Under the pieces are notes generated by a model. It had not been told where the DNA came from. It made no database searches and saw only the letters and a program-made list of their open reading frames with translations. The translations under genes and the position numbers were made by a program. Positions 1 through 43,782 of a DNA stretch of 64,000 bases are shown piece after piece. Source of the DNA: a virus; IMG/VR virus record IMGVR_UViG_3300027806_000003, positions 1 through 64,000 of that record. One strand, given 5' to 3'. The number at the start of each line of letters is the position of its first letter. Position 1 is the stretch's first letter.

Positions 1-42
1 TTCCCAAGCTGAATGTCGGGAGTTCGATCCTCCTCGCCCGCT
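1..42 (+). tRNA. tRNA-Gly(CCC), 3' half (cut by window edge); probable att core of phage B
   Basis: Anticodon loop TTCCCAA, then GCTGA, T-arm GGGAG-TTCGATC-CTCCT, acceptor strand CGCCCGC-T; no encoded CCA. Confidence 0.9.
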
Positions 43-129
43 TTAGCAGACCCTAGTTTCCTCGACTGGATCTGCGAGGCCCTGCTCGGGCCGCTGCCAC
101 TGAACAGCATTGAGCGCAACGCCGACCCA

Positions 130-164
130 AGCCCCCGGCCGCTAACCGGGGGCTCGGCGTTTTT
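130..164 (+). terminator. Putative intrinsic terminator downstream of tRNA-Gly
   Basis: Stem AGCCCCCGG / CCGGGGGCT followed by CGGCGTTTTT. Confidence 0.55.
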
Positions 165-355
165 GGGCTCAGTCAGGTGGTGCGGGGTGCAAGAAAATCA
201 AGGGGTACCTCTGGGTTTGATGTGTACCGGCTGTGGAAAAGGGCAAGGGGTATCGACTCCCGGCCTATCCATCGGCTCGAATGTGGGGCGGGTTGAGCCG
301 GATCTGGGCCTGCGTGTGTAGGTCACCAACGGCGGGTTATCGGTGGAGAGGCTTC

Positions 356-811
356 ATGGCTCGCTGGAACGTCGAAGTGATCAGCCCGAGCACCGGCGCT
401 CAGCGTCTCGTGGAAGTCAGGGCTGCCTCGTCCGATGAGGCTCGGACCATCGCCTCGGACATGCAGATCGGCGTTGTCGGGACGGCGGTGCGGCTGCCCG
501 ACCTCCCGCCCACAGACGAGCAGATGGCGGCGGTGCTGGATCGGTTGACGATGATCGAAGCCGCGGCGATGAGAATCGCGAAGTCCCGATTGGTTGAGCG
601 GCCGCGTCGGTCTGTCGCGTGGGGGATCGTTCTCGGCGTTCTGTTCTTGATGCTGATCTGGCTCGTGTTGCTGCTGAGCGTGGTGGCACTGAATGCGATC
701 TTTGCAGTATCGCTGATGAACGAGTTGACGAAGCGAGCTCAGACGAATCCCGCTCCTGCGCCGAGTTCGATCTTGTCCACGCCCCGGGAGCCTGGGCGTC
801 TCTCTCGATGA
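356..811 (+). CDS. Membrane protein (moron) with PilC/GspF-N-terminus-like domain
   Basis: GGAGAG RBS before ATG 356; MARWNVEVISPSTGAQRLVEVRAASSDEAR...; long C-terminal hydrophobic segment. Confidence 0.75.
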   Translation: MARWNVEVISPSTGAQRLVEVRAASSDEARTIASDMQIGVVGTAVRLPDLPPTDEQMAAVLDRLTMIEAAAMRIAKSRLVERPRRSVAWGIVLGVLFLMLIWLVLLLSVVALNAIFAVSLMNELTKRAQTNPAPAPSSILSTPREPGRLSR

Positions 812-824
812 ATGGAGTTCTGTC

Positions 825-1475
825 GTGCCCGATTGGAAGATCGAAGTCATCAGCCCGCGGGATGGAACAATCTCGCACGTGGAGGTCAAGGCTCCGACTG
901 CGGAGGTCGCGCGTCAGGCTGTTGCGCTCACGGGTGCTGGAGTCGTCGGCGCGGCGACGCTTATCCGCCTGGATGCCGATCCGGTAGTCGTCACGGCTGC
1001 GCGTCCCGACGATCAGCCCGAGCGGGAGCTCGCGGACCTGCGGCCGTCGGTGCTGCTGATGGTGCCTCCCGTGTTTGGCCTGTGCGCCTGGTCGTCGCTC
1101 ACGTACTTGCTCATCGCGATGGTGCCCGGACCGATGGAGGCGCTGCTCGCGCTTGTCGCCGGCTGCATGGCCTTCTGGTCGATCGTTCGCGTGCTGGACT
1201 GTGCGATGTACATTCATCGCACGCGACTCGTGCTCACAAGCCAGAGGGTGATTGCCCGCGGCGGCACGCTCTTTACAACGAAGCGCATGGAGTCTCCGCT
1301 CCGGTCTGTGGAGACGATCGGCACGGCGAACACGCTGTGGGGAAGCGTGCTGGGTCTCTGGACCGTCGGCGTGTCATTCAACGGCGGCACTCGGACGCAG
1401 ATCCGCGGCGTCGCCGAGGCTCCCGTGGTTGTTGAGAAGCTCAATCGAGCCATCGAGCAGCAGCGACGGCGCTGA
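825..1475 (+). CDS. Membrane protein with bacterial PH (bPH_2-like) domain; N-terminus paralogous to 356-811
   Basis: GGAG + GTG; MPDWKIEVISPRDG...; 2 TM segments then LVLTSQRVIARGGTLF...SPLRSVETI...WGSVLGLWTV, typical of bPH_2. Confidence 0.8.
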   Translation: MPDWKIEVISPRDGTISHVEVKAPTAEVARQAVALTGAGVVGAATLIRLDADPVVVTAARPDDQPERELADLRPSVLLMVPPVFGLCAWSSLTYLLIAMVPGPMEALLALVAGCMAFWSIVRVLDCAMYIHRTRLVLTSQRVIARGGTLFTTKRMESPLRSVETIGTANTLWGSVLGLWTVGVSFNGGTRTQIRGVAEAPVVVEKLNRAIEQQRRR

Positions 1476-1504: not shown

Positions 1505-2344
1505 ATGCCCGATCTAGAAACGAAGCGCAAGCCCCGTGTCCGCATGACCCAGGTGCAGGCCGCGACCCCCGCGGGCAGGAAGCTCGTTGAGTCGATTCTC
1601 CAAGCGTGCCATGACGGGCAGATCGAGTACCGCGAGGCCGAACAGGTCTTCACGTGTCTGGCGGCGGTCGGCGAATCGATCCCCGCGGCTGGATACCTGC
1701 GCGTCATCCTGATGGAGTCGCTCGAGGATGGCTCGATCGACGAGCACGATGCCTATCGCCTCAAGCAGGCCTTCATCGACGTCGTTCCGCGCGAGGTTAA
1801 GCCGGTCATCGAGACCCACCTGCAGGGGATCGGGCTTCCGGCTCCCGAGGTGGTGTCGCACATCGACCAGCCTCCGTGGTGGTCGGACCCGATGACTGGC
1901 AAGCAGGCGCAGTTCATCGCCAGCCTGGGCGGCGTCGTGCGTGGCGACATGACCAAGGGCCAGGCGAGCCTCCTGATCGATCAGTTGCTCAATCGCCAAC
2001 CGCCGACGCCGCGGCAGATCATGCTCCTTCGCTTCTTCAATCGCCTCGACCTAGCGGACTCTTCGCGCGAAGAGATCAGCGGGTTCGTCGCGGAGCTCAC
2101 CCGCTCCGATCCCGAAGCGATGTTGTACTGGGATCGGTTCAAGGCCCAGACTCAGCAACCCAAGGGATGCCGCGATCCGCTGGTCGTGCCGATCGGCGCG
2201 TACGCGAAGATGAAGGCGGGAAAGACCTTCACGCCCAGCATCGCTGGATCGAACGGATCTCGGCGGCGAATCGTCGCTTTGATCATCGCTCTGATCGCCT
2301 TCATCGTCGCCTCAGCGCTCGTTCAGACGCTGCTGGGGGCGTAA
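1505..2344 (+). CDS. Hypothetical protein, C-terminal TM anchor, two TxxQ...AS/IS..I..L helical repeats
   Basis: 279-aa ORF; PMTGKQAQFIASLG..MTKGQASLLIDQLL and PPTPRQIMLLRFF..SREEISGFVAEL; TM IVALIIALIAFIVASALV. Confidence 0.75.
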   Translation: MPDLETKRKPRVRMTQVQAATPAGRKLVESILQACHDGQIEYREAEQVFTCLAAVGESIPAAGYLRVILMESLEDGSIDEHDAYRLKQAFIDVVPREVKPVIETHLQGIGLPAPEVVSHIDQPPWWSDPMTGKQAQFIASLGGVVRGDMTKGQASLLIDQLLNRQPPTPRQIMLLRFFNRLDLADSSREEISGFVAELTRSDPEAMLYWDRFKAQTQQPKGCRDPLVVPIGAYAKMKAGKTFTPSIAGSNGSRRRIVALIIALIAFIVASALVQTLLGA

Positions 2345-2554
2345 GGCGATCACCCTTGCTGACAACCGGGTTATTTGGATATTCACTCCACTCATCTAGG
2401 GGCAACTGAAATCCGAACAAGCAGTGGAACCACTGGTTGTGAGCAGGCTGGCGTTGTCAATGGCCTGGGGACGCCCGATACTTCATCGTGCTGAATGCAC
2501 GCGGCGAATTGGGTTTGCTTGATCCGCCGCCCTGAACCCGGAAAGGGAATACCG

Positions 2555-2926
2555 ATGTCCGTGCTTGTTCGCGCCAATGTTCGCCTCTTGGAGAGCCCCA
2601 AGGTTCTCGAGGCCCATCTTTTTGACCTCGGATTGACGATCTCGGCTCCGGACGACGCGTCCTTGGTCTCTGAGATCCGCGCGGCGCTCATCGGGCACTA
2701 CATCATTGCCAATCGCGAGAGTCGCGTTCCGTTTGCCGATATGGTTTGCAGCCCGGGCTTTGCTGACGAGGAGCTGTACAACCGGACCCACGTGCTTAAG
2801 GGCACGAACGCTCGACGACTCGATCTGCCTTCCGACGTTCGAGAGGCGTTGTCCAAGGCTCTTGGCCTCGTCAATCGAAACGGGACGCATCCGGCTGATT
2901 CTGTTCGCCTCGTGGTGGCCGCGTGA
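2555..2926 (+). CDS. Possible HicB-like antitoxin
   Basis: RBS GAAAGGG; LEAHLFDLGLTISAPDDASLVSEIRAALIGHY resembles the HicB beta-beta-alpha core; GTGA-coupled to next gene. Confidence 0.45.
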   Translation: MSVLVRANVRLLESPKVLEAHLFDLGLTISAPDDASLVSEIRAALIGHYIIANRESRVPFADMVCSPGFADEELYNRTHVLKGTNARRLDLPSDVREALSKALGLVNRNGTHPADSVRLVVAA

Positions 2927-3204
2927 GTCAGGTTTCTGGCGAGCCTTGGCTTGCTCGAGATGGGTTGCCGCCAATGACTGGCGAGCACCTTGTTGAGTAT
3001 CTGCGCGCGAGTGGCGCTGTGATCGAGGTAGTTGTGCACGAGGCCGCAAGGGGTCTTGAGAGACCTCTTTTCATTGCGACGCTCAACGGCCGCTCGATTC
3101 CACTGCCGCTGTTTCGCGACCGTCCAATATCTCCGCGGCATGCCCGGGATCTGTGTCAGCGGCTCGGACTACCGGTGCCCTCGAACTGGGCAGTTGTGAT
3201 GTGA
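2923..3204 (+). CDS. Possible HicA-like toxin
   Basis: MTGEHLVEYLRASG...RSIPLP..RPISPRHARDLCQRLGL fits HicA size and pattern, but the canonical GSH motif is absent. Confidence 0.45.
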   Translation: MSQVSGEPWLARDGLPPMTGEHLVEYLRASGAVIEVVVHEAARGLERPLFIATLNGRSIPLPLFRDRPISPRHARDLCQRLGLPVPSNWAVVM

Positions 3205-3248: not shown

Positions 3249-3740
3249 CTACATCGCCGTCGCACGAAGGTGCCTATGGCGATGCAGTTTCCGCCGGCAC
3301 ACCCGAAGCCATCGGTCTAGGTTCGTCGCGGCCCACCATGCGACGCGCACGGCCCGCTTTGCCTGCACGATGCACCCGCACCCCGGAACCTTCGGGGCTC
3401 TCACCGTGCTGATGCTGCCCTTGCTCCACAGCTCGAGGCGCTGCCACATCGGCGCGCCGTGAGTCTTCACGCGGATGTTCAGCCGCCCGATCGTGATCGG
3501 CGTGTGGACGATGCCCTTGGCATCCGGATGGCGGCCCTCGGGGCAAGGCAGGCCGTAGACCGTGTGCTCGTCCACCGTGTACCCCGACCGCGAGCACACG
3601 CCGGCATCGGCGTGCTCGCCGGTCTGCCGCATGTTCGGGCACGCCGCGCAGATGACCGCTCGCGTCACCGTCTGTCCGTCGCGCTTCGCGCCGTTGCGAC
3701 ACGCGATCGTGCCCTTTGTCTGTCCGCATCCGCAGGTCAT
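3249..3740 (-). CDS. Cys-rich small protein, last late gene (allele 1)
   Basis: ATGA-coupled to upstream gene; MTCGCG..CAAC..C..CPEGRH..GCGC; N-terminal part identical to 42461-42949. Confidence 0.75.
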   Translation of the reverse strand: MTCGCGQTKGTIACRNGAKRDGQTVTRAVICAACPNMRQTGEHADAGVCSRSGYTVDEHTVYGLPCPEGRHPDAKGIVHTPITIGRLNIRVKTHGAPMWQRLELWSKGSISTVRAPKVPGCGCIVQAKRAVRVAWWAATNLDRWLRVCRRKLHRHRHLRATAM

Positions 3741-4573
3741 GGAAGGTTCCCTCCTCCGCCGATAATGCCGCGGCACTCTGGCGTGTCGGTAAAGTACGCT
3801 TTGGGGTTCCTTCGGTCGCCAGAGCCTGGTGCGCTGAACTGCTTGAACCCAGAAGATTCGGCTTCGTCAAACTCGCCATTACCAAGATTGAGACGCTGAA
3901 GCCTGTAGTACGCGGAGCGTCGGCAGTCAAAGAACGCCCGAACGATGTCCACTTCGCACGCCCCGCACGCCAAGATGTCAGGCGGCGGGGGCTGCCTGCC
4001 AAAGCAAGAAAAGAACCCGCTGAATGGGCCGTTGGGGTATGGTTCGGAGGCGAAGCAGTTGAAGGGTTGCGGCGTTACTTGGCTCACCGTCGTGGTGGTG
4101 CCGCTAACCGGGTCTGTCCTGATGCGAGTTAGCGTGGCGGAGCCCGACCATTCACAGCAGTCTCCGGGGGTCGCGTTAGGCCGCTGCGACCACGTGACAT
4201 TGCTCTCGAAGATTTGCTCTTCAACCGTCTCGCCGCCGGCTCGAACGGATCGACTCTTGAAGGTCCATCGCATCCGCGCGGTCATGCCTGCAATCTGGCA
4301 CTCGTCGGTCGGAATAAGGTATGTGCCAGGCGGCGCGTTTGGGTCGATCGGATTCGGATCGTCGATCATCCTGCACAGAAATGGACAGCAACAATTCGCA
4401 CACACCGCGTTTGTGCCAACATCGGCACATCGGGCTATCTGTTCTCCCTGCGGCTGAAATGGAAGCGGACAACCTGTGCCATACTCCGGACCTCGGGGTG
4501 CCGACGGGTCGAACCACGGCGGCGGGCCGCCCGGCCCCCACGGCGGCTCGCCATTCCACCCATCACCGCAGCA
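3513..4573 (+). repeat. 1061-bp direct repeat, copy 1
   Basis: Matches 42722-43782 at offset 39209; ORF translations in several frames are identical. Confidence 0.95.
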
Positions 4574-7474: not shown

Positions 7475-8253
7475 CGTGGTGCTCCCGCGTTCATGCTTGC
7501 CAAGATCGCCTTGCGTCCGGTGGTGATCCCCAGTTGCCGCAGCAGCGCCGCGGCCTTCTGCGCCAGCCGTTTCTTGAACTCCACGATCCGCGCGTGGGGC
7601 TCGCGGTTGGACACCATGATCGTGCTCCGCTCCGGGGTGTGCTCGGCTCTGCCGACTCCGCCGTAGACCTTGGCCCGCACCGTCGTCAGCCTCGGCCTGC
7701 CGCTCCTGGTGCGCGTCTTGCCGAAGATCAGCACCCCCTGCCCGCCGCTGGCCATGTACAGATCAAGCTCGGTCCGGCTCCGCCGGTGCCGATCGTCCGC
7801 GTCCTCTTCCCACTTGCGCAGTTTGGTCAGCCGCGTCCGCAGTTCCCGCAGCCGCAGTTGCATCGCGCTCGACCGCCGCCCCTGGGCGATCGTCGCCTCG
7901 GCCGACCGCAAACTCCGCTCGGTCTTGTCCACGGCCATGCGCGCCACCTGCAGTTCCTTCCACCGCTCGACAACCTGCACCGCCAGCCGATCGGCCCACT
8001 GCTCGGCAAAGCGGCTCTTGCGCACCTCCGGCACGGGAAACGGGCCGATGCCCGCCTGGTTGCCCGCCATCGCCCACGCGCGGCTGTACCGCATCGTGTC
8101 GCGCGGGCTCACGGCCAGCACCGCCCGCATCGCCGTGCGGAAACTCATCCGCATCGCTTCCACACGCGCGCCGGGGATCCTCCGCCGCGCAAACTCGATC
8201 CGCTCCTTCAGCGGCCGCACGTTCACGCGTACAACCATCGCCCCGGTGCTCAT
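7471..8253 (-). CDS. Putative neck/tail-completion (HK97 gp10-like) protein with coiled-coil insert
   Basis: Basic protein; SPRDT..YSRAW and VSNREPHARIVEF motifs; same position as 47953-48525. Confidence 0.5.
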   Translation of the reverse strand: MSTGAMVVRVNVRPLKERIEFARRRIPGARVEAMRMSFRTAMRAVLAVSPRDTMRYSRAWAMAGNQAGIGPFPVPEVRKSRFAEQWADRLAVQVVERWKELQVARMAVDKTERSLRSAEATIAQGRRSSAMQLRLRELRTRLTKLRKWEEDADDRHRRSRTELDLYMASGGQGVLIFGKTRTRSGRPRLTTVRAKVYGGVGRAEHTPERSTIMVSNREPHARIVEFKKRLAQKAAALLRQLGITTGRKAILASMNAGAPR

Positions 8254-31306: not shown

Positions 31307-31350
31307 TTCCCGACCCGCACAGGCCCCTCGGCCCCGTGTACGCTGGCCCC

Positions 31351-32715
31351 ATGCCCCGCCCTCTGCCCATGATGCGAAAGCACGCCCGCGGCATGTGGAC
31401 CGTGCGGATCGACGGCATCGACCACTACCTCGGCCTGGACCGCACCGCTGCCGAGGCCCAATACGCCCAGCTCATCGCCGAAGTCGCCGCCGCCCGCGCC
31501 GACGAGGCCGAGGCGATCGCCGCGGCCCACGCCGCCGCCCCTGCCGGCAGCACGCGCCGCGAGCCGACGATCGCCCAGGTCATCACCGCGTACATCACGC
31601 AGCGCACCGCCGAGCGTGGCCGCGGCACGGCCCGCTACGACCGCACCAGCCTGCGCCGCCTGGCCAGCACTTTTCCCAAGCTTCCGCTCAGCCGTCTCTC
31701 GGCCCCGCTGGTGGCCGCCATGGCCGCCGACGCCCAGCAGTCGGGCCTTGCCCCCCGCACGGTCTCGCACGAACTGACGGCCATCAAGGGCCTCATGCGC
31801 TGGGCCGCGCTGAACTACCCGCACATCCGCCTGGCCTGGAACCGTGACGCCCTGCCCCGCGTCCGCGTGCCGCGCAGCCCCCGGCGCTACCAGCCCGTGG
31901 CGTACATCGCAAAGTACATCCTCGCGCACGAGGCCTACGACCCCCGCATCGCCCCGTGGCTTCGGCTGCAGTTCCTGGCCGCCCTCCGCCCGATCGAAAC
32001 AACCCGCATCATCCACGGCCAGTACGAGTTTCACCGCCCCGAGCTCGGCGAGTATGTCCTGGCCATCGACAACAAAACCACCGGCGTCTCCGCCGAGCCG
32101 CTGCGGTTTGTCGTGCTCAGCGTCGAGGCCGCCGCCGCCCTCGCGGCCGCCACGGCCGAGCCTCCGCCCTGGAGCTGCCCTCAGCCGGGCGAGCCGGCCT
32201 CCAACGCCTCGGGTGCCGATCAGGTCTTCCGCCGCGCCTGGCGTGGCCAGCACACCAAGAGCACCACGCTCATCGAGGCCCTGAGCGTCCGCCGCCCGCG
32301 TCAGTCTGGCGTCGGCCCGCCGCCGGGCTTCCCGCGTCACTTCCTGCGTCACTCGGCGTATCAGGCTCTTCTCGACGCCCTGCCCGAGCAGCAGAGCACG
32401 GCCAAGATGCTCGCCGGCCACGTCCAGCCCGGGGCCTGGAGCGCCTACGCCGATGCTCCGTGGCACCGCTGGCGCGATCAGATCAGCAGTGCCTTGACGC
32501 TCACCGCGCACGAGTCAGCCCTCCTTGCCGATCCGGCCTTCGCCGCCGTGCTCGAGAAGATCCGCGCCGAGAGTCCCGTGCGTGCCAAGCTGGCCCTGGG
32601 CCTGCCCGCCAGCCACCGCGGCATGCTCAAGGGCCGCAGGCTCGGCCCCCGTCAGCGTGCCCTTGAGTCCCCGTCCGGCGACACCGGCTCGGCGACGGTC
32701 GACGGCGGCCGCTGA
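31351..32715 (+). CDS. int: Tyrosine integrase
   Basis: N-terminal W.VRIDG..HYLG arm-binding style; LAALRPIE (R), DNKTT (K), HFLRH, LAGH, SAY (Y). Confidence 0.88.
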   Translation: MPRPLPMMRKHARGMWTVRIDGIDHYLGLDRTAAEAQYAQLIAEVAAARADEAEAIAAAHAAAPAGSTRREPTIAQVITAYITQRTAERGRGTARYDRTSLRRLASTFPKLPLSRLSAPLVAAMAADAQQSGLAPRTVSHELTAIKGLMRWAALNYPHIRLAWNRDALPRVRVPRSPRRYQPVAYIAKYILAHEAYDPRIAPWLRLQFLAALRPIETTRIIHGQYEFHRPELGEYVLAIDNKTTGVSAEPLRFVVLSVEAAAALAAATAEPPPWSCPQPGEPASNASGADQVFRRAWRGQHTKSTTLIEALSVRRPRQSGVGPPPGFPRHFLRHSAYQALLDALPEQQSTAKMLAGHVQPGAWSAYADAPWHRWRDQISSALTLTAHESALLADPAFAAVLEKIRAESPVRAKLALGLPASHRGMLKGRRLGPRQRALESPSGDTGSATVDGGR

Positions 32716-41093: not shown

Positions 41094-41195
41094 ATTGTGC
41101 CATGCGTAGGGCATATGTCAAACACAAGTGTCAAAGAAGTCTATAAATCCCCGGTTTGGGGCGTTTGTTGACATTGCCACCACACACGGAAGACT
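41094..41195. promoter_or_regulatory. Divergent promoters of the immunity switch
   Basis: Minus: TTGACA(41121-16)-16nt-CACAAT with TG extension, second TTGACA at 41134-29; plus: TTGACA(41168-73)-16nt-AAGACT 5 nt before repressor ATG (leaderless-like); AT-rich. Confidence 0.7.
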
Positions 41196-41200
41196 CATGC

Positions 41201-41794
41201 ATGAACCCGGTCGCAGAACTTCGCCGGGGGCGGGGTCTGACGCAGAGTGAACTCGCCGCCGCGGCGGGCGTGCATCTTCGCACCGTCTGGCGAATGGAGC
41301 ATGACAGAGGCTCGGCAACACTTCCGAGCGTCACCGCCGTAGTGATCGCGCTGCACGACTCCTCCGGAGTTTCTGAGGATGAACTGTTTTCTGTTGCCCG
41401 CCACTTTGGGCTTCCGCCGGCCCCGATACTGGCTCGCCTTGGAGTTCAATCGGTGCGATCAGGAACGGCGCCGGCAAGCGTTGCGGACACCGATCGGCTC
41501 ATCGCAAAGCTGCGCGTTGCCATCGCGGAGCTCGGCGTAGCAGCCGTCGAACAGCACCTCAATGACGTTCTCATGGCGGCTTTTGCCAAAAACTCGCCGC
41601 CGCCCGCGACCGCCGTTGGTGCCACTTCCGATGAGCATGTCATGACCGTCGCATCGAACCCCCGCAAGAGCCCGCTCGGCCCGAACATCCTGGAGCAGGA
41701 GTTTCGCCACTACTCGCCAGCCCCTCCACCAGCCGCGCCCACCGAGCCTCAGCAGTCCCCGTCCAAGCCCGCCCCCAAACGCCGACCCGGATAA
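41201..41794 (+). CDS. XRE-family HTH repressor
   Basis: VAELRRGRGLTQSELAAAAGVHLRTVWRMEH; divergent from early operon; no S24 domain evident. Confidence 0.85.
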   Translation: MNPVAELRRGRGLTQSELAAAAGVHLRTVWRMEHDRGSATLPSVTAVVIALHDSSGVSEDELFSVARHFGLPPAPILARLGVQSVRSGTAPASVADTDRLIAKLRVAIAELGVAAVEQHLNDVLMAAFAKNSPPPATAVGATSDEHVMTVASNPRKSPLGPNILEQEFRHYSPAPPPAAPTEPQQSPSKPAPKRRPG

Positions 41795-41797
41795 CTC

Positions 41798-41897
41798 TTC
41801 GGCCCCGAAGGGGCCGAGGTATGTAGCCACGGGTGGAGCGCAGCGCAACCCGTGGACAGCCTTCCCCTTCATTCCTGCCCCGGCAGGGGCAGAGGAG
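41798..41897 (+). repeat. Family-1 REP-like element after repressor
   Basis: Full three-hairpin copy. Confidence 0.85.
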
Positions 41898-41990
41898 TCT
41901 CGGAGCCACGATCCCGCCCGCCCGCACGCGACCATCGCCGCTCTCTTTGCTTTGCCGCTTCACCGCGATCATCATCAAAGGCCCTCCCTC

Positions 41991-42431
41991 ATGCCCAGGT
42001 ATCACATCCACACCGTCATCGACGGCCGCCGCAAGATCGCCAAGCTCGATGCACCCTCCGAGGCCGCCGCCCGCGATCAGGCCACCCGCGCGGGCCTGAT
42101 CATCAACGCCATCGAGCTCGCTCCCGAGCCGCCCCAGCCCGCCAGCCAGCCCGCGCCGGAACCGCTCATCACGCCCGCCTCGGCGCCTCCGCACGATGCT
42201 GCCATCGCCGATCTCCTCGCCCGCATCCACGCGGATCTTGTCGTGCTCAAGGCCCACACAGCTTTCCTCGAGCCCATCGCCCGGTGCGAACTTCTCCGGC
42301 GTCCAAACTTCACGCTCATCGCCACCGTCTGCCTGGGCATCTTCTTCGGCGTGGTCTTCCTGCTGGTCGTGGCGTTCTTCGTGCTCCTGTTCTTTAACCA
42401 GGTCGGTCGTTTCACCCGCACCGGCGGCTGA
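41991..42431 (+). CDS. Membrane protein (moron) with PilC/GspF-N-terminus-like domain
   Basis: MPRYHIHTVIDGRRKIAKLDAPSEAAARDQATRAGL; Pro linker; C-terminal TM; co-oriented with repressor. Confidence 0.75.
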   Translation: MPRYHIHTVIDGRRKIAKLDAPSEAAARDQATRAGLIINAIELAPEPPQPASQPAPEPLITPASAPPHDAAIADLLARIHADLVVLKAHTAFLEPIARCELLRRPNFTLIATVCLGIFFGVVFLLVVAFFVLLFFNQVGRFTRTGG

Positions 42432-42460: not shown

Positions 42461-42949
42461 TTATTTGACCATTTGACCATTTGACCATTTGGCTCTTCGC
42501 CTCCGCCCCACCCTCCACCACCGGTCCAGGTTCGTCACCGCCCACAGCGTGACCCTGACCGCTCGCTTGAGCGGAATCACGCATCCGCACCCGGGCACCT
42601 TCGGCGCCAGCGGCGTGCTGATCTTGCCCTGGCTCCAAAGCTCCAGCCGTTGCCACATCGGCGATCCCCGCGTCCGCACACGCACGCTCACACGCCCGAT
42701 CGTGATCGGCGTGCTGACCACGCCCTTGGCATCCGGATGGCGGCCCTCGGGGCAAGGCAGGCCGTAGACCGTGTGCTCGTCCACCGTGTACCCCGACCGC
42801 GAGCACACGCCGGCATCGGCGTGCTCGCCGGTCTGCCGCATGTTCGGGCACGCCGCGCAGATGACCGCTCGCGTCACCGTCTGTCCGTCGCGCTTCGCGC
42901 CGTTGCGACACGCGATCGTGCCCTTTGTCTGTCCGCATCCGCAGGTCAT
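42461..42949 (-). CDS. Cys-rich small protein, last late gene (allele 2)
   Basis: Paralog of 3249-3740 with diverged C-terminal half; ends in CCATTTGA array typical of phage A. Confidence 0.75.
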   Translation of the reverse strand: MTCGCGQTKGTIACRNGAKRDGQTVTRAVICAACPNMRQTGEHADAGVCSRSGYTVDEHTVYGLPCPEGRHPDAKGVVSTPITIGRVSVRVRTRGSPMWQRLELWSQGKISTPLAPKVPGCGCVIPLKRAVRVTLWAVTNLDRWWRVGRRRRAKWSNGQMVK

Positions 42950-43782
42950 GGAAGGTTCCCTCCTCCGCCGATAATGCCGCGGCACTCTGGCGTGTCGGTA
43001 AAGTACGCTTTGGGGTTCCTTCGGTCGCCAGAGCCTGGTGCGCTGAACTGCTTGAACCCAGAAGATTCGGCTTCGTCAAACTCGCCATTACCAAGATTGA
43101 GACGCTGAAGCCTGTAGTACGCGGAGCGTCGGCAGTCAAAGAACGCCCGAACGATGTCCACTTCGCACGCCCCGCACGCCAAGATGTCAGGCGGCGGGGG
43201 CTGCCTGCCAAAGCAAGAAAAGAACCCGCTGAATGGGCCGTTGGGGTATGGTTCGGAGGCGAAGCAGTTGAAGGGTTGCGGCGTTACTTGGCTCACCGTC
43301 GTGGTGGTGCCGCTAACCGGGTCTGTCCTGATGCGAGTTAGCGTGGCGGAGCCCGACCATTCACAGCAGTCTCCGGGGGTCGCGTTAGGCCGCTGCGACC
43401 ACGTGACATTGCTCTCGAAGATTTGCTCTTCAACCGTCTCGCCGCCGGCTCGAACGGATCGACTCTTGAAGGTCCATCGCATCCGCGCGGTCATGCCTGC
43501 AATCTGGCACTCGTCGGTCGGAATAAGGTATGTGCCAGGCGGCGCGTTTGGGTCGATCGGATTCGGATCGTCGATCATCCTGCACAGAAATGGACAGCAA
43601 CAATTCGCACACACCGCGTTTGTGCCAACATCGGCACATCGGGCTATCTGTTCTCCCTGCGGCTGAAATGGAAGCGGACAACCTGTGCCATACTCCGGAC
43701 CTCGGGGTGCCGACGGGTCGAACCACGGCGGCGGGCCGCCCGGCCCCCACGGCGGCTCGCCATTCCACCCATCACCGCAGCA
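42722..43782 (+). repeat. 1061-bp direct repeat, copy 2
   Basis: Matches 3513-4573. Confidence 0.95.

What the first reader, a model, noticed from the sequence alone, without database searches (positions are those of the whole stretch)
356..1475. Prophage morons with PilC/GspF-N-terminus-like domains: candidate pilus-jamming superinfection exclusion system
Seen: 356-811 (MARWNVEVISPSTGAQRLVEVRAASSDEAR), 825-1475 (MPDWKIEVISPRDGTISHVEVKAPTAEVAR) and phage A 41991-42431 (MPRYHIHTVIDGRRKIAKLDAPSEAAARDQATRAGL) share a short beta-beta-alpha N-terminal module tethered by C-terminal TM helices. All are transcribed opposite to the lytic genes. Known: PilC/GspF platform proteins begin with roughly MPxFxYxAxDxxG....EAxSxxEAxxxLRxxGL, and Pseudomonas phage proteins such as Tip and Aqs1 block type IV pili by binding PilB. 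Inference: both phages carry membrane-anchored platform mimics that could sequester the pilus/T2SS ATPase in lysogens. The resemblance is by eye only.
Basis: inference. Interest (0 to 1): 0.72.

Follow-up and report, generated by a model that had tools for sequence, protein, structure and literature searches.

The report
Prophage membrane proteins sharing small N-domain
Three small membrane-anchored proteins at the lysogeny end of two Phycisphaerae prophages share a 48-residue N-terminal fold that does resemble the start of the pilus/secretion platform proteins PilC/GspF, but the fold is common, host PH-domain membrane proteins carry it too, and it is not the ATPase-binding part of the platform, so "pilus jamming" stays speculative.

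Summary
ORFs 356-811, 825-1475 and 41991-42431 are real-looking genes on the strand opposite to the late genes. Each has an N-terminal module of about 48 aa followed by TM segments. Leave-one-out profiles find these three, and nothing else, among 645 ORFs of the record. AlphaFold2 folds the module with confidence (pLDDT 92) as beta-beta-alpha-beta.

The likeness to PilC/GspF is partly real. Profile-profile alignment to 20 Phycisphaerae platform N-termini is in register from Met1 (hhalign 91-94%, P about 1e-6 to 1e-7). The published PulF N-domain has the same fold and the same PDB neighbours (T7 Gp2, YkzG). But HMMER-level similarity is not significant, and the fold is very common in small phage proteins.

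The module is at least as similar to the N-terminus of a cellular Phycisphaerae family with the architecture of ORF 825-1475: module, TM hairpin, bPH_2. That ORF is therefore best read as a phage-borne YdbS-like PH-domain membrane protein.

The proposed mechanism, sequestering PilB/GspE, is not supported. The GspF N-domain is peripheral and dispensable, has no known partner, and is not the modelled ATPase interface.

Most likely these are lysogeny-expressed inner-membrane morons acting in exclusion or immunity, with an unknown target. Interest is moderate to low.

The parts
1..44 (+). att core: the 3' half of tRNA-Gly(CCC), repeated exactly at the other end of the 79,354-bp record
   Evidence: The 44-bp terminal direct repeat was found. 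By my reading of the sequence, the anticodon loop is TTCCCAA and a T-arm and acceptor stem follow. The exact 42-mer occurs in 91 genome stretches, nearly all Phycisphaerales/Phycisphaeraceae MAGs. An integrase lies next to the other copy (record 78164-79216, phrog_1 E=6e-32).
130..163 (+). Terminator-like hairpin plus T-run just after the tRNA piece
   Evidence: It is conserved in the related phage contig L001, with a compensatory stem change.
266..306 (+). Conserved non-coding block upstream of the module genes; candidate promoter or operator of the cassette (inferred)
   Evidence: It aligns with the block directly upstream of the P0002 homologue in L001, while the flanking sequence is diverged. 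No sigma-70 consensus was found.
356..811 (+). P0001, 151 aa: beta-beta-alpha-beta N-module (1-48), helical linker, one long hydrophobic TM stretch (about 87-121), short Pro-rich tail
   Evidence: A GGAGAGG Shine-Dalgarno-like motif lies 6-12 nt before the ATG. No Pfam, PHROG or PADLOC family matched. Only its own 90% cluster was found among 5.8 billion proteins.
825..1475 (+). P0002, 216 aa: N-module (1-48), linker, TM hairpin (about 77-125), cytoplasmic bPH_2 domain (132-203)
   Evidence: Five full-length relatives at 55-87% identity. One sits in the same position in a second viral contig, L001: int(-), tRNA piece, this gene(+), Cys-rich late genes(-).
1505..2344 (+). P0004, 279 aa: third gene of the same + strand cassette, a soluble region with a single C-terminal TM anchor (251-279); no module
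   Evidence: no family; TM. It is included only as an operon neighbour.
41156..41794 (+). XRE-type HTH repressor-like gene directly upstream of P0003 and co-oriented with it
   Evidence: HTH_3 26.7 bits against a cut-off of 23. PHROG transcriptional repressor and regulator families, E about 1e-5.
41991..42431 (+). P0003, 146 aa: diverged N-module (1-46), Pro-rich linker, helix, one long TM stretch (about 108-139)
   Evidence: A 57-aa truncated variant (P0012) starts at the same Met.

Best explanation
These are three lysogeny-side (moron) genes of two related temperate phages of Phycisphaerales (Planctomycetota).

Each encodes an inner-membrane-anchored protein. Its first 48 residues or so form a small cytoplasmic beta-beta-alpha-beta domain held at the membrane by TM helices.

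P0002 is a phage-borne member of the YdbS-like class: a TM hairpin plus a cytoplasmic bacterial PH domain (bPH_2). It copies an architecture found in chromosomal proteins of the host clade: the same kind of N-domain, a TM hairpin, then bPH_2. P0001 and P0003 are minimal, mosaic versions made of the N-domain, a helix and a TM.

The N-domain belongs to the same fold class as the N-domain of the PilC/GspF platform proteins and is weakly profile-similar to it. It is not a platform protein.

Inferred function: the proteins are made in the lysogen, from their own promoter next to attP or downstream of the repressor-like gene. They act at the cytoplasmic face of the inner membrane as exclusion or immunity factors. 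The TM/PH part would form an oligomeric membrane assembly, and the N-domain would act as a partner-binding or lipid-binding head. The target is unknown.

Shown here: gene reality, the shared module, the fold, topology by the positive-inside rule, bPH_2 membership, the host clade and the cellular relatives. Inferred only: expression in lysogens and the exclusion or immunity role.
For: - Shared module.
- Confident fold (pLDDT 92.3; strands 3-9, 16-22 and 40-48, helix 26-36).
- bPH_2 above Pfam's cut-off, and PHROG 3707 'membrane-flanked domain' in the moron category.
- Position between attP/integrase and the distal end of the convergent late operon, the same in a second viral contig.
- P0003 lies directly downstream of an XRE-type repressor-like gene.
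- Cellular Phycisphaerae family P0023-P0035 has an N-terminus matching the module in register (HMM E down to 6e-7 among 21 sequences; hhalign Prob 94.5%, P=7.5e-8) plus a TM hairpin and bPH_2 (E=2e-11 and 9e-13). It sits in non-phage, non-pilus neighbourhoods.
- Shorter family members lack the module, and other bPH_2 proteins of these genomes carry a Zn-ribbon there instead, so the N-domain is a swappable accessory head.
- bPH domains of the membrane-anchored families are predicted intracellular and form oligomeric rings (PMC2817789).
- YdbS/YdbT-like proteins are tied to export of, or protection from, membrane-active peptides (PMC8657885).
Against: - There are no expression data, and no recognisable promoter by sigma-70 consensus.
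- No match to any defence family in PADLOC.
- No homologue in 50,697 deposited phage genomes, so no characterised relative exists.
- An exclusion or immunity role rests on gene position and analogy alone.
- The cellular relatives show that the architecture has a host function that need not concern phages.
- The full-length AF2 model of P0002 was poor (pLDDT 51), so the PH ring is not modelled here.
Confidence: 0.45

Rival explanations
1. The membrane-tethered module is a decoy of the PilC/GspF N-domain. It competes for whatever that domain normally contacts in one of the host's many type IV pilus or type II secretion machines. That lowers piliation or secretion and gives pilus-dependent superinfection exclusion.
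For: - In-register profile-profile match to 20 Phycisphaerae platform N-termini: score 31.3, P=1.1e-6, Prob 91%. The column-shuffled null has mean 8.3 and maximum 13 over 200 shuffles; the reversed alignment scores 10.5.
- The match persists without the first three columns (P=6e-5) and for each subfamily taken separately.
- Against a full-length 413-column platform profile it is still the only hit (module 1-41 to platform 1-40, P=5.7e-5; next best score 9).
- The platform N-term HMM ranks the P0003 ORF first of 645 ORFs.
- The module has the same beta-beta-alpha-beta fold and the same PDB neighbours (T7 Gp2 Z=5.8, YkzG/RNAP epsilon Z=4.7) as reported for the PulF N-domain.
- Host-clade genomes carry about 6-9 T2SSF genes each, some next to GspE-like ATPases, so targets exist.
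- The module is predicted cytoplasmic and membrane-proximal, like the platform N-domain.
- Deleting the PulF N-domain lowers pilus assembly and secretion, so interfering with it could have an effect.
Against: - HMMER-level similarity is not significant: best E=0.076 for P0003, and P0001 and P0002 are not in the top 15.
- A whole-genome search of 5 host-clade genomes with the module profile did not return any platform gene.
- Identity is about 20%, and the shared positions (hairpin Gly, A-x-S/T-x-x-x-A helix start, Gly before beta3) look structural.
- The module matches cellular bPH_2 N-domains at least as well (36.9 against 31.3). Those sit away from pilus genes.
- The fold is very common in about 50-aa phage proteins.
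- The N-domain is dispensable, shows no coevolution with other parts, has no known partner, and is not the modelled ATPase interface. ATPase sequestration as originally proposed therefore has no basis.
- There is no similarity to the known PilB inhibitors.
Confidence: 0.12
2. The genes are host-derived cargo with an ordinary cellular role. P0002 does in the lysogen what its chromosomal relatives do, for example YdbS/YdbT-like export of, or tolerance to, membrane-active peptides, or an envelope-stress function. It benefits the lysogen but has no role in phage-phage conflict. P0001 and P0003 are degenerate fragments.
For: - The same architecture occurs in chromosomal Phycisphaerae genes in housekeeping neighbourhoods: photolyases, histidine kinase and Ham1; MauE/DoxX, GAF, DUF885 and an ammonium transporter.
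- bPH_2 proteins are linked to bacteriocin transport and antibiotic tolerance.
- P0001 looks mosaic: an N-module like P0002's and a C-half like P0003's.
Against: - The P0002 lineage is only 29% identical to the cellular family over the PH region (E=0.001), so it is not a recent capture.
- It keeps its position next to attP in two diverged phages at 56% identity, which argues for a phage-selected function.
- Both phages retain a module-plus-TM gene in the same place.
Confidence: 0.2
3. The proteins are lysis-timing or abortive-infection membrane effectors (holin/antiholin-like or pore-forming) that act during the lytic cycle or on superinfection, rather than passive exclusion proteins.
For: - They are small proteins with one or two TMs and charged tails.
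- bPH rings have been proposed to act as membrane pores or transporters.
Against: - They are transcribed opposite to the late genes and far from the lysis-like cassette at about 11.6-15.2 kb.
- P0003 follows a repressor-like gene.
- The cytoplasmic N-domains and the PH domain are atypical for holins.
- No PADLOC hit.
Confidence: 0.08

Closest known systems
N-domain of GspF/PilC platform proteins (for example PulF residues 1-54; PMC10790770)
   Same: It is an N-terminal, cytoplasmic, membrane-proximal domain of about 45-50 aa starting at Met1. It has the beta-beta-alpha-beta order and an in-register profile similarity. It has the same PDB neighbours, T7 Gp2 and YkzG. A flexible linker follows, then membrane segments.
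   Different: No T2SSF helical domains and no three-TM platform core follow the module. Identity is about 20%, and HMMER-level similarity is not significant. The modules here are roughly neutral in charge (5 K/R against 5 D/E), whereas the paper describes a positively charged, lipid-binding N-domain.
YdbS/YdbT-like bPH_2 (PF03703, formerly DUF304) membrane proteins; PHROG 3707 'membrane-flanked domain' phage morons
   Same: P0002 has the TM hairpin followed by a bPH_2 domain above Pfam's cut-off. Cellular Phycisphaerae relatives have the identical three-part architecture.
   Different: P0002 has an extra N-terminal beta-beta-alpha-beta head that Pfam does not describe. P0001 and P0003 have the head and a TM but no PH domain.
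Phage-encoded type IV pilus inhibitors Tip (D3112), Aqs1 (DMS3), Zip and PfsE (Pf)
   Same: They are small prophage-expressed proteins that give superinfection exclusion by disabling pili (PMC11656802; PMC8764522, listed).
   Different: No sequence match to any solved structure of these proteins or to any PHROG family. By the review read, Tip and Aqs1 bind PilB and Zip acts on the PilZ-PilB complex. From my own knowledge, not checked here, Tip and Aqs1 are soluble and PfsE is a tiny TM peptide that binds PilC. None is reported as a platform mimic.
Small beta-beta-alpha-beta phage proteins: T7 Gp2, DpnD/PcfM-like (PF14207), phi29 p56, T4 Dmd, AcrIE2
   Same: Fold-level matches: Gp2 Z=5.8, rmsd 2.1 A over 48 residues; AcrIE2 Z=4.3; Dmd Z=4.2; p56 Z=3.5. 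BFVD lists dozens of about 50-aa phage proteins with TM-scores of 0.7-0.87, including a PcfM-like protein. There is a weak Pfam hit to DpnD-PcfM (15.3 bits). From my own knowledge, several of these are inhibitors that bind a host protein.
   Different: Those are free soluble proteins, whereas here the domain is tethered to the membrane. All Z-scores are below the level that separates homology from a common arrangement (tool note).
Inner-membrane superinfection-exclusion morons such as HK97 gp15, P22 SieA and T4 Imm
   Same: They are small inner-membrane proteins encoded by temperate phages outside the late operon, some between the tail genes and int/att, and are expressed in lysogens.
   Different: No sequence or domain relationship was tested or is known. 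This is an analogy of position and topology only.

Membership tests
GspF/PilC platform proteins (T2SSF, PF00482) | Two T2SSF helical cytoplasmic domains | tested here: not met
   Pfam scans of P0001-P0003 at E up to 1 gave no PF00482 hit. The same model finds 12-18 domain matches in each of four host-clade genomes and 3 in the fifth.
GspF/PilC platform proteins (T2SSF, PF00482) | Three TM segments in a protein of about 400 aa | tested here: not met
   The proteins are 146-216 aa, with one hydrophobic stretch (P0001, P0003) or a hairpin (P0002).
GspF/PilC platform proteins (T2SSF, PF00482) | N-terminal beta-beta-alpha-beta N-domain | tested here: met
   The AF2 model has pLDDT 92.3 with strands 3-9, 16-22 and 40-48 and helix 26-36. 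hhalign to 20 platform N-termini is in register, Prob 91-94%. The fold description for PulF was read. A direct structural superposition was not possible: no solved N-domain is in the PDB apart from the 3jc8 pseudo-atomic model.
GspF/PilC platform proteins (T2SSF, PF00482) | Binding of the GspE/PilB ATPase | not testable with these tools
   No complex-prediction tool was available. Published AF2-multimer models place the ATPase on Cyto1/Cyto2, with the N-domain left out of the model.
bPH_2 / YdbS-like membrane proteins (PF03703) | bPH_2 domain above the curated cut-off | tested here: met
   P0002: 27.5 bits against a cut-off of 22, residues 132-203. All five relatives carry precomputed PF03703. 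P0001 and P0003 have no hit, so this feature is not met for those two.
bPH_2 / YdbS-like membrane proteins (PF03703) | Two TM helices directly before the PH domain | tested here: met
   Hydrophobic segments at about 77-98 and 103-125, followed by HRTR and the PH domain. The AF2 secondary structure shows helices at 76-98 and 103-144 (low confidence).
Tip/Aqs1-type PilB inhibitors | Sequence similarity to the Aqs core | tested here: not met
   A profile search of all PDB sequences, which include Aqs1 entry 6V7U cited, gave no hit at E up to 10 apart from a methyltransferase. No PHROG family matched.
DpnD/PcfM-like (PF14207) | Pfam match above the cut-off | tested here: inconclusive
   The P0001 module scores 15.3 bits against a cut-off of 25. 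A BFVD fold match to a PcfM-like protein has TM-score 0.68-0.70.
Known anti-phage defence systems (PADLOC-DB 2.0) | Any model match | tested here: not met
   No hit at E up to 1 for P0001-P0004.

The most novel reading that the evidence does not exclude
The beta-beta-alpha-beta head is one undescribed domain superfamily. It would link the orphan N-domain of PilC/GspF platform proteins, the N-domain of planctomycete YdbS-like PH proteins and these phage morons. All would dock to the same, still unknown, membrane-proximal partner. The phage versions would then be tethered decoys that shut down one of the host's many type IV filament machines in lysogens. That would both define a new exclusion mechanism and point to the missing partner of the platform N-domain.
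Probability: 0.1. Interest if true: 0.75.

Novelty: new variant of a known kind. Interest (0 to 1): 0.36.

Why it matters
If the modest reading is right, this adds an uncharacterised N-terminal domain family, absent from Pfam, to the catalogue of prophage membrane morons. It also shows that a Phycisphaerae phage carries a diverged copy of a host-clade PH-domain membrane protein. That is useful for annotation but not surprising.

The more interesting point is the function and partner of the GspF/PilC N-domain, which are an acknowledged open question (PMC10790770). A family of stand-alone, membrane-tethered look-alikes would give a handle for pull-downs or genetics, if the relationship is real. 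Planctomycete phage-host biology is almost unexplored, and no cultured system exists for these particular phages.

Tried and rejected
- The genome-contig scan with the P0002-family alignment found nothing.
- Viral-contig scans with P0001, P0003 and the P0014/P0016 alignment found nothing new. The module alignment was too diverse for the search for related loci.
- The word-index search found no relative of P0001.
- The ESM Atlas gave no usable hit for the module.
- A PDB sequence search with the module profile gave only a chance hit.
- A whole-genome HMMER search of five host-clade genomes with the 4-sequence module profile gave only chance-level hits (E of 0.04 or worse). None was at a platform gene, and inspection showed low-complexity or wrong-frame matches.
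- Foldseek against the PDB and BFVD gave no match at E of 0.001 or better. VIA-align gave no Z of 8 or more.
- The first AF2 run, on full-length P0002 with 6 sequences, was too poor to use (pLDDT 51).
- tblastn of P0002 against deposited phage genomes gave no match.
- I considered that the start of P0001 might be the GTG at 233. I rejected this because all relatives begin at the module's Met and a Shine-Dalgarno-like motif precedes 356.
- I considered GYF_2 and Zn-ribbon identities for the module. Pfam does not support them: there was no GYF hit, and Zn_ribbon_Com scored only 15.5 bits against a cut-off of 22.9 and the module has no Cys ligands.
Full report
**Setting.**

The window is the first 64 kb of a 79,354-bp IMG/VR virus record. 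The record begins and ends with the same 44 bases. I read these as the 3' half of tRNA-Gly(CCC): anticodon loop TTCCCAA, T-arm and acceptor strand. This is a classic att core.

The exact 42-mer occurs in 91 stretches of public genomes, almost all Phycisphaerales/Phycisphaeraceae MAGs. The host is therefore a member of the Phycisphaerae (Planctomycetota). A tyrosine integrase lies next to the far copy (record 78164-79216, phrog_1 E=6e-32).

A GC3-based gene map shows nearly all genes on the - strand. The + strand exceptions are:
- 356-2344, three genes;
- a second integrase at 31336-32715;
- 41156-42431, an XRE-type HTH gene (HTH_3, 26.7 bits) followed by the third ORF of the finding.

The record holds two phage-like genomes. 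They share a 1,267-bp segment at 95.7% identity (3309-4573 against 42518-43782). In both, the module gene or genes lie just before this Cys-rich distal end of the late operon and converge on it.

**The observation.**

- P0001 and P0002 share 44% identity over 41 N-terminal residues (E=3e-7).
- P0001 and P0003 are alike in the linker and TM half (E=3e-6). P0001 therefore looks mosaic.
- P0003's N-terminus is too diverged for BLASTP. A module HMM built without it still ranks it third among all 645 ORFs of 40 aa or more in the record (E=3e-5), in register from its Met.
- Leaving out P0001 gives E=9e-15 for P0001. No other ORF scores better than E=0.29.

Hydropathy gives one long hydrophobic stretch in P0001 (84-124) and in P0003 (105-142), and a hairpin in P0002 (about 77-125). 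K/R-rich N-flanks place the module in the cytoplasm.

**Relatives.**

P0002 has five full-length relatives at 55-87% identity. One lies in a second viral contig (L001) in the same place: integrase(-), tRNA-Gly piece, this gene(+), Cys-rich late genes(-). A terminator-like hairpin after the tRNA piece is conserved there, with a compensatory stem change. So is a block of about 40 nt just upstream of the gene.

P0001 has no relative outside its own cluster.

A 50-position profile of the module was scored against 1.84 billion representatives. It found a few more proteins with the module at the N-terminus, fused to other parts:
- P0014 and P0016: multi-TM, faintly DUF4328-like;
- P0022: two or more TMs;
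- P0020: two modules plus a TM;
- P0021: no TM.

The module is thus a mobile N-terminal head, mostly found on membrane proteins.

**Fold.**

With the 13-sequence alignment restricted to the module, AlphaFold2 gives pLDDT 92.3 and pTM 0.69. The elements are strand 3-9, strand 16-22, helix 26-36 and strand 40-48.

Nothing in the PDB is a significant match (Foldseek E of 0.6 or worse; best VIA Z=6.7). The neighbours are small beta-beta-alpha-beta proteins:
- a phage portal-vertex protein;
- PurS;
- ribosomal proteins;
- T7 Gp2 (Z=5.8, rmsd 2.1 A over 48 residues);
- RNAP epsilon/YkzG (Z=4.7);
- AcrIE2, Dmd and p56.

In BFVD, dozens of phage proteins of about 50 aa and unknown function match with TM-scores of 0.7-0.87, including a DpnD/PcfM-like one. 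The fold is real but very common.

**Is it PilC/GspF-like?**

No solved structure covers the first 55 residues or so of a platform protein, apart from the 3jc8 pseudo-atomic model. I therefore tested at sequence-profile level and against the literature.

Five host-clade genomes carry many T2SSF genes: 12-18 domain matches in four of them, that is about 6-9 proteins each. I extracted 20 platform N-termini from them.

hhalign of the 13-sequence module alignment against these gives the following:
- Score 31.3, P=1.1e-6, Prob 91%, over 40 columns, in register from Met1.
- 200 column shuffles give mean 8.3 and maximum 13. The reversed alignment scores 10.5.
- The match survives removal of the first three columns (P=6e-5).
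- It is seen separately for the P0002 family (P=4e-4), for P0003 (P=1e-4) and for the other module proteins (P=3e-6). It is weak for P0001 alone (P=0.02).
- Against a full-length 413-column platform profile, the only hit is still module 1-41 to platform 1-40 (P=5.7e-5; next best score 9).

The paper on PulF (PMC10790770) describes the N-domain (residues 1-54) as beta-beta-alpha-beta. It names T7 Gp2 and YkzG as its structural neighbours in the PDB. These two proteins are also in my lists.

Against a specific relationship:
- HMMER-level similarity is not significant. The platform HMM's best hit in the record is P0003 at E=0.076, and P0001 and P0002 are not in the top 15.
- The module profile does not retrieve platform genes from whole host-clade genomes.
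- Identity is about 20%.
- The shared positions look like fold determinants: the hairpin Gly, the A-x-S/T-x-x-x-A helix start and the Gly before strand 3.

**A closer relative.**

The one metagenome locus recovered for P0014 (L134) is a chromosomal stretch with a histidine kinase, Ham1 and photolyases. It also carries a second module-like gene, P0023. Its N-terminus begins M-A-R-R-Y-I-V-H-G, continues to an EAESAKAAE helix start, and is followed by a TM hairpin and bPH_2 (E=2e-11).

P0023 has a family of about 200-220-aa homologues in Phycisphaerales MAGs.
- Their N-termini match the phage module HMM in register (best E=6e-7 among 21 sequences).
- By hhalign the match is Prob 94.5%, P=7.5e-8, score 36.9. 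That is slightly better than either family's match to the platform N-domain (27.2 and 31.3).
- Shorter members of the family lack the head.
- Other bPH_2 proteins of the same genomes carry a Zn-ribbon there instead.
- The copy in a 4.46-Mb Phycisphaerales genome sits among MauE/DoxX, GAF, DUF885 and ammonium-transporter genes, not pilus genes.

P0002 is therefore best described as a diverged phage-borne member of a host-clade architecture: head, TM hairpin, bPH_2. It is only 29% identical to P0023 over the PH region, so it is not a recent capture.

**Mechanism.**

What I read argues against that step.
- The PulF N-domain is joined by a flexible linker and sits at the periphery of all oligomer models.
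- It shows no coevolution with the rest of the protein.
- It is dispensable for stability and oligomerisation. Its loss only lowers secretion and piliation.
- Its partner is unknown.
- The ATPase is modelled on Cyto1/Cyto2, with the N-domain omitted.

Among the known phage pilus inhibitors, Tip and Aqs1 bind PilB and Zip acts on the PilZ-PilB complex. From my own knowledge, PfsE binds PilC; I did not read that paper. None of them resembles these proteins. A corrected version of the idea, a decoy for the N-domain's unknown partner, is not excluded. I give it about 0.12.

My preferred reading (about 0.45) is as follows. These are lysogeny-expressed inner-membrane morons. The TM/PH part assembles in the membrane: bPH domains of membrane-anchored families are predicted intracellular and form rings, and YdbS/T-like proteins are tied to traffic of, or protection from, membrane-active peptides. 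The head binds a partner or lipid at the inner face. The result would be exclusion or immunity. Position next to attP or behind a repressor-like gene, opposite orientation to the late genes, and retention in two diverged phages support this. Expression and phenotype remain untested.

Other readings are ordinary host-type cargo (0.2) and a lysis or abortive-infection effector (0.08).

**Verdict.**

- Novelty: a new variant of a known kind, namely prophage bPH_2/TM morons with an undescribed N-terminal head.
- Interest is moderate to low. The main value would come only if the head proves to be a true homologue of the orphan platform N-domain.

This limited the context analysis of the other module proteins.

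Noticed in passing
window 1-44 and record 79311-79354 (L002 15311-15354): The record's 'direct terminal repeat' is the 44-bp 3' half of tRNA-Gly(CCC), that is, an att core rather than a packaging repeat. The exact 42-mer is found almost only in Phycisphaerales MAGs, several of which carry two copies on one contig. Those may be further prophages or remnants at this tRNA.
   Followed up: partly
window 3309-4573 vs 42518-43782: A 1,267-bp segment at 95.7% identity is the only long similarity between the two halves of the record. The 79-kb record thus holds two phage-like genomes of about 40 kb. They could be nested or tandem prophages, or an assembly path that crossed between two phages through this shared segment. 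No middle copy of the tRNA att core exists.
   Followed up: partly
window 130-163; L001 about 7770-7805: A strong terminator-like hairpin plus T-run lies right after the tRNA fragment. It is conserved in a second phage, with a compensatory change in the stem. It is probably the replacement terminator for the tRNA gene after integration.
   Followed up: no
window 1505-2344: The third gene of the + strand cassette (279 aa) is tail-anchored by a single C-terminal TM. It has no family in Pfam, PHROGs, NCBIfam or PADLOC. All three cassette genes thus encode proteins tethered to the membrane with cytoplasmic parts.
   Followed up: partly
window 2495-2926 and 2923-3204: Two + strand ORFs (143 and 93 aa) overlap by 4 nt in a stretch of lower G+C between the cassette and the late genes. 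They have no family hit, and their GC3 is below that of the neighbouring genes. They may be a coupled foreign gene pair or not genes at all.
   Followed up: partly
L134 7001-7876 and 13641-14312: One chromosomal metagenome contig carries two different module-bearing membrane proteins about 6 kb apart, flanking photolyase-type genes. One is multi-TM (P0014); the other has a TM hairpin plus bPH_2 (P0023). P0023 starts 12 nt after a photolyase/amine-oxidase fusion gene.
   Followed up: no
L136 1162-1785; L138 1486-2250: Other bPH_2 membrane proteins of Phycisphaerae genomes carry a CxxC...CPxC zinc-ribbon head in place of the beta-beta-alpha-beta head. The N-terminal head of this protein class is therefore interchangeable.
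   Followed up: no
P0020 (171 aa): This protein has two tandem copies of the module before a single C-terminal TM.
   Followed up: no
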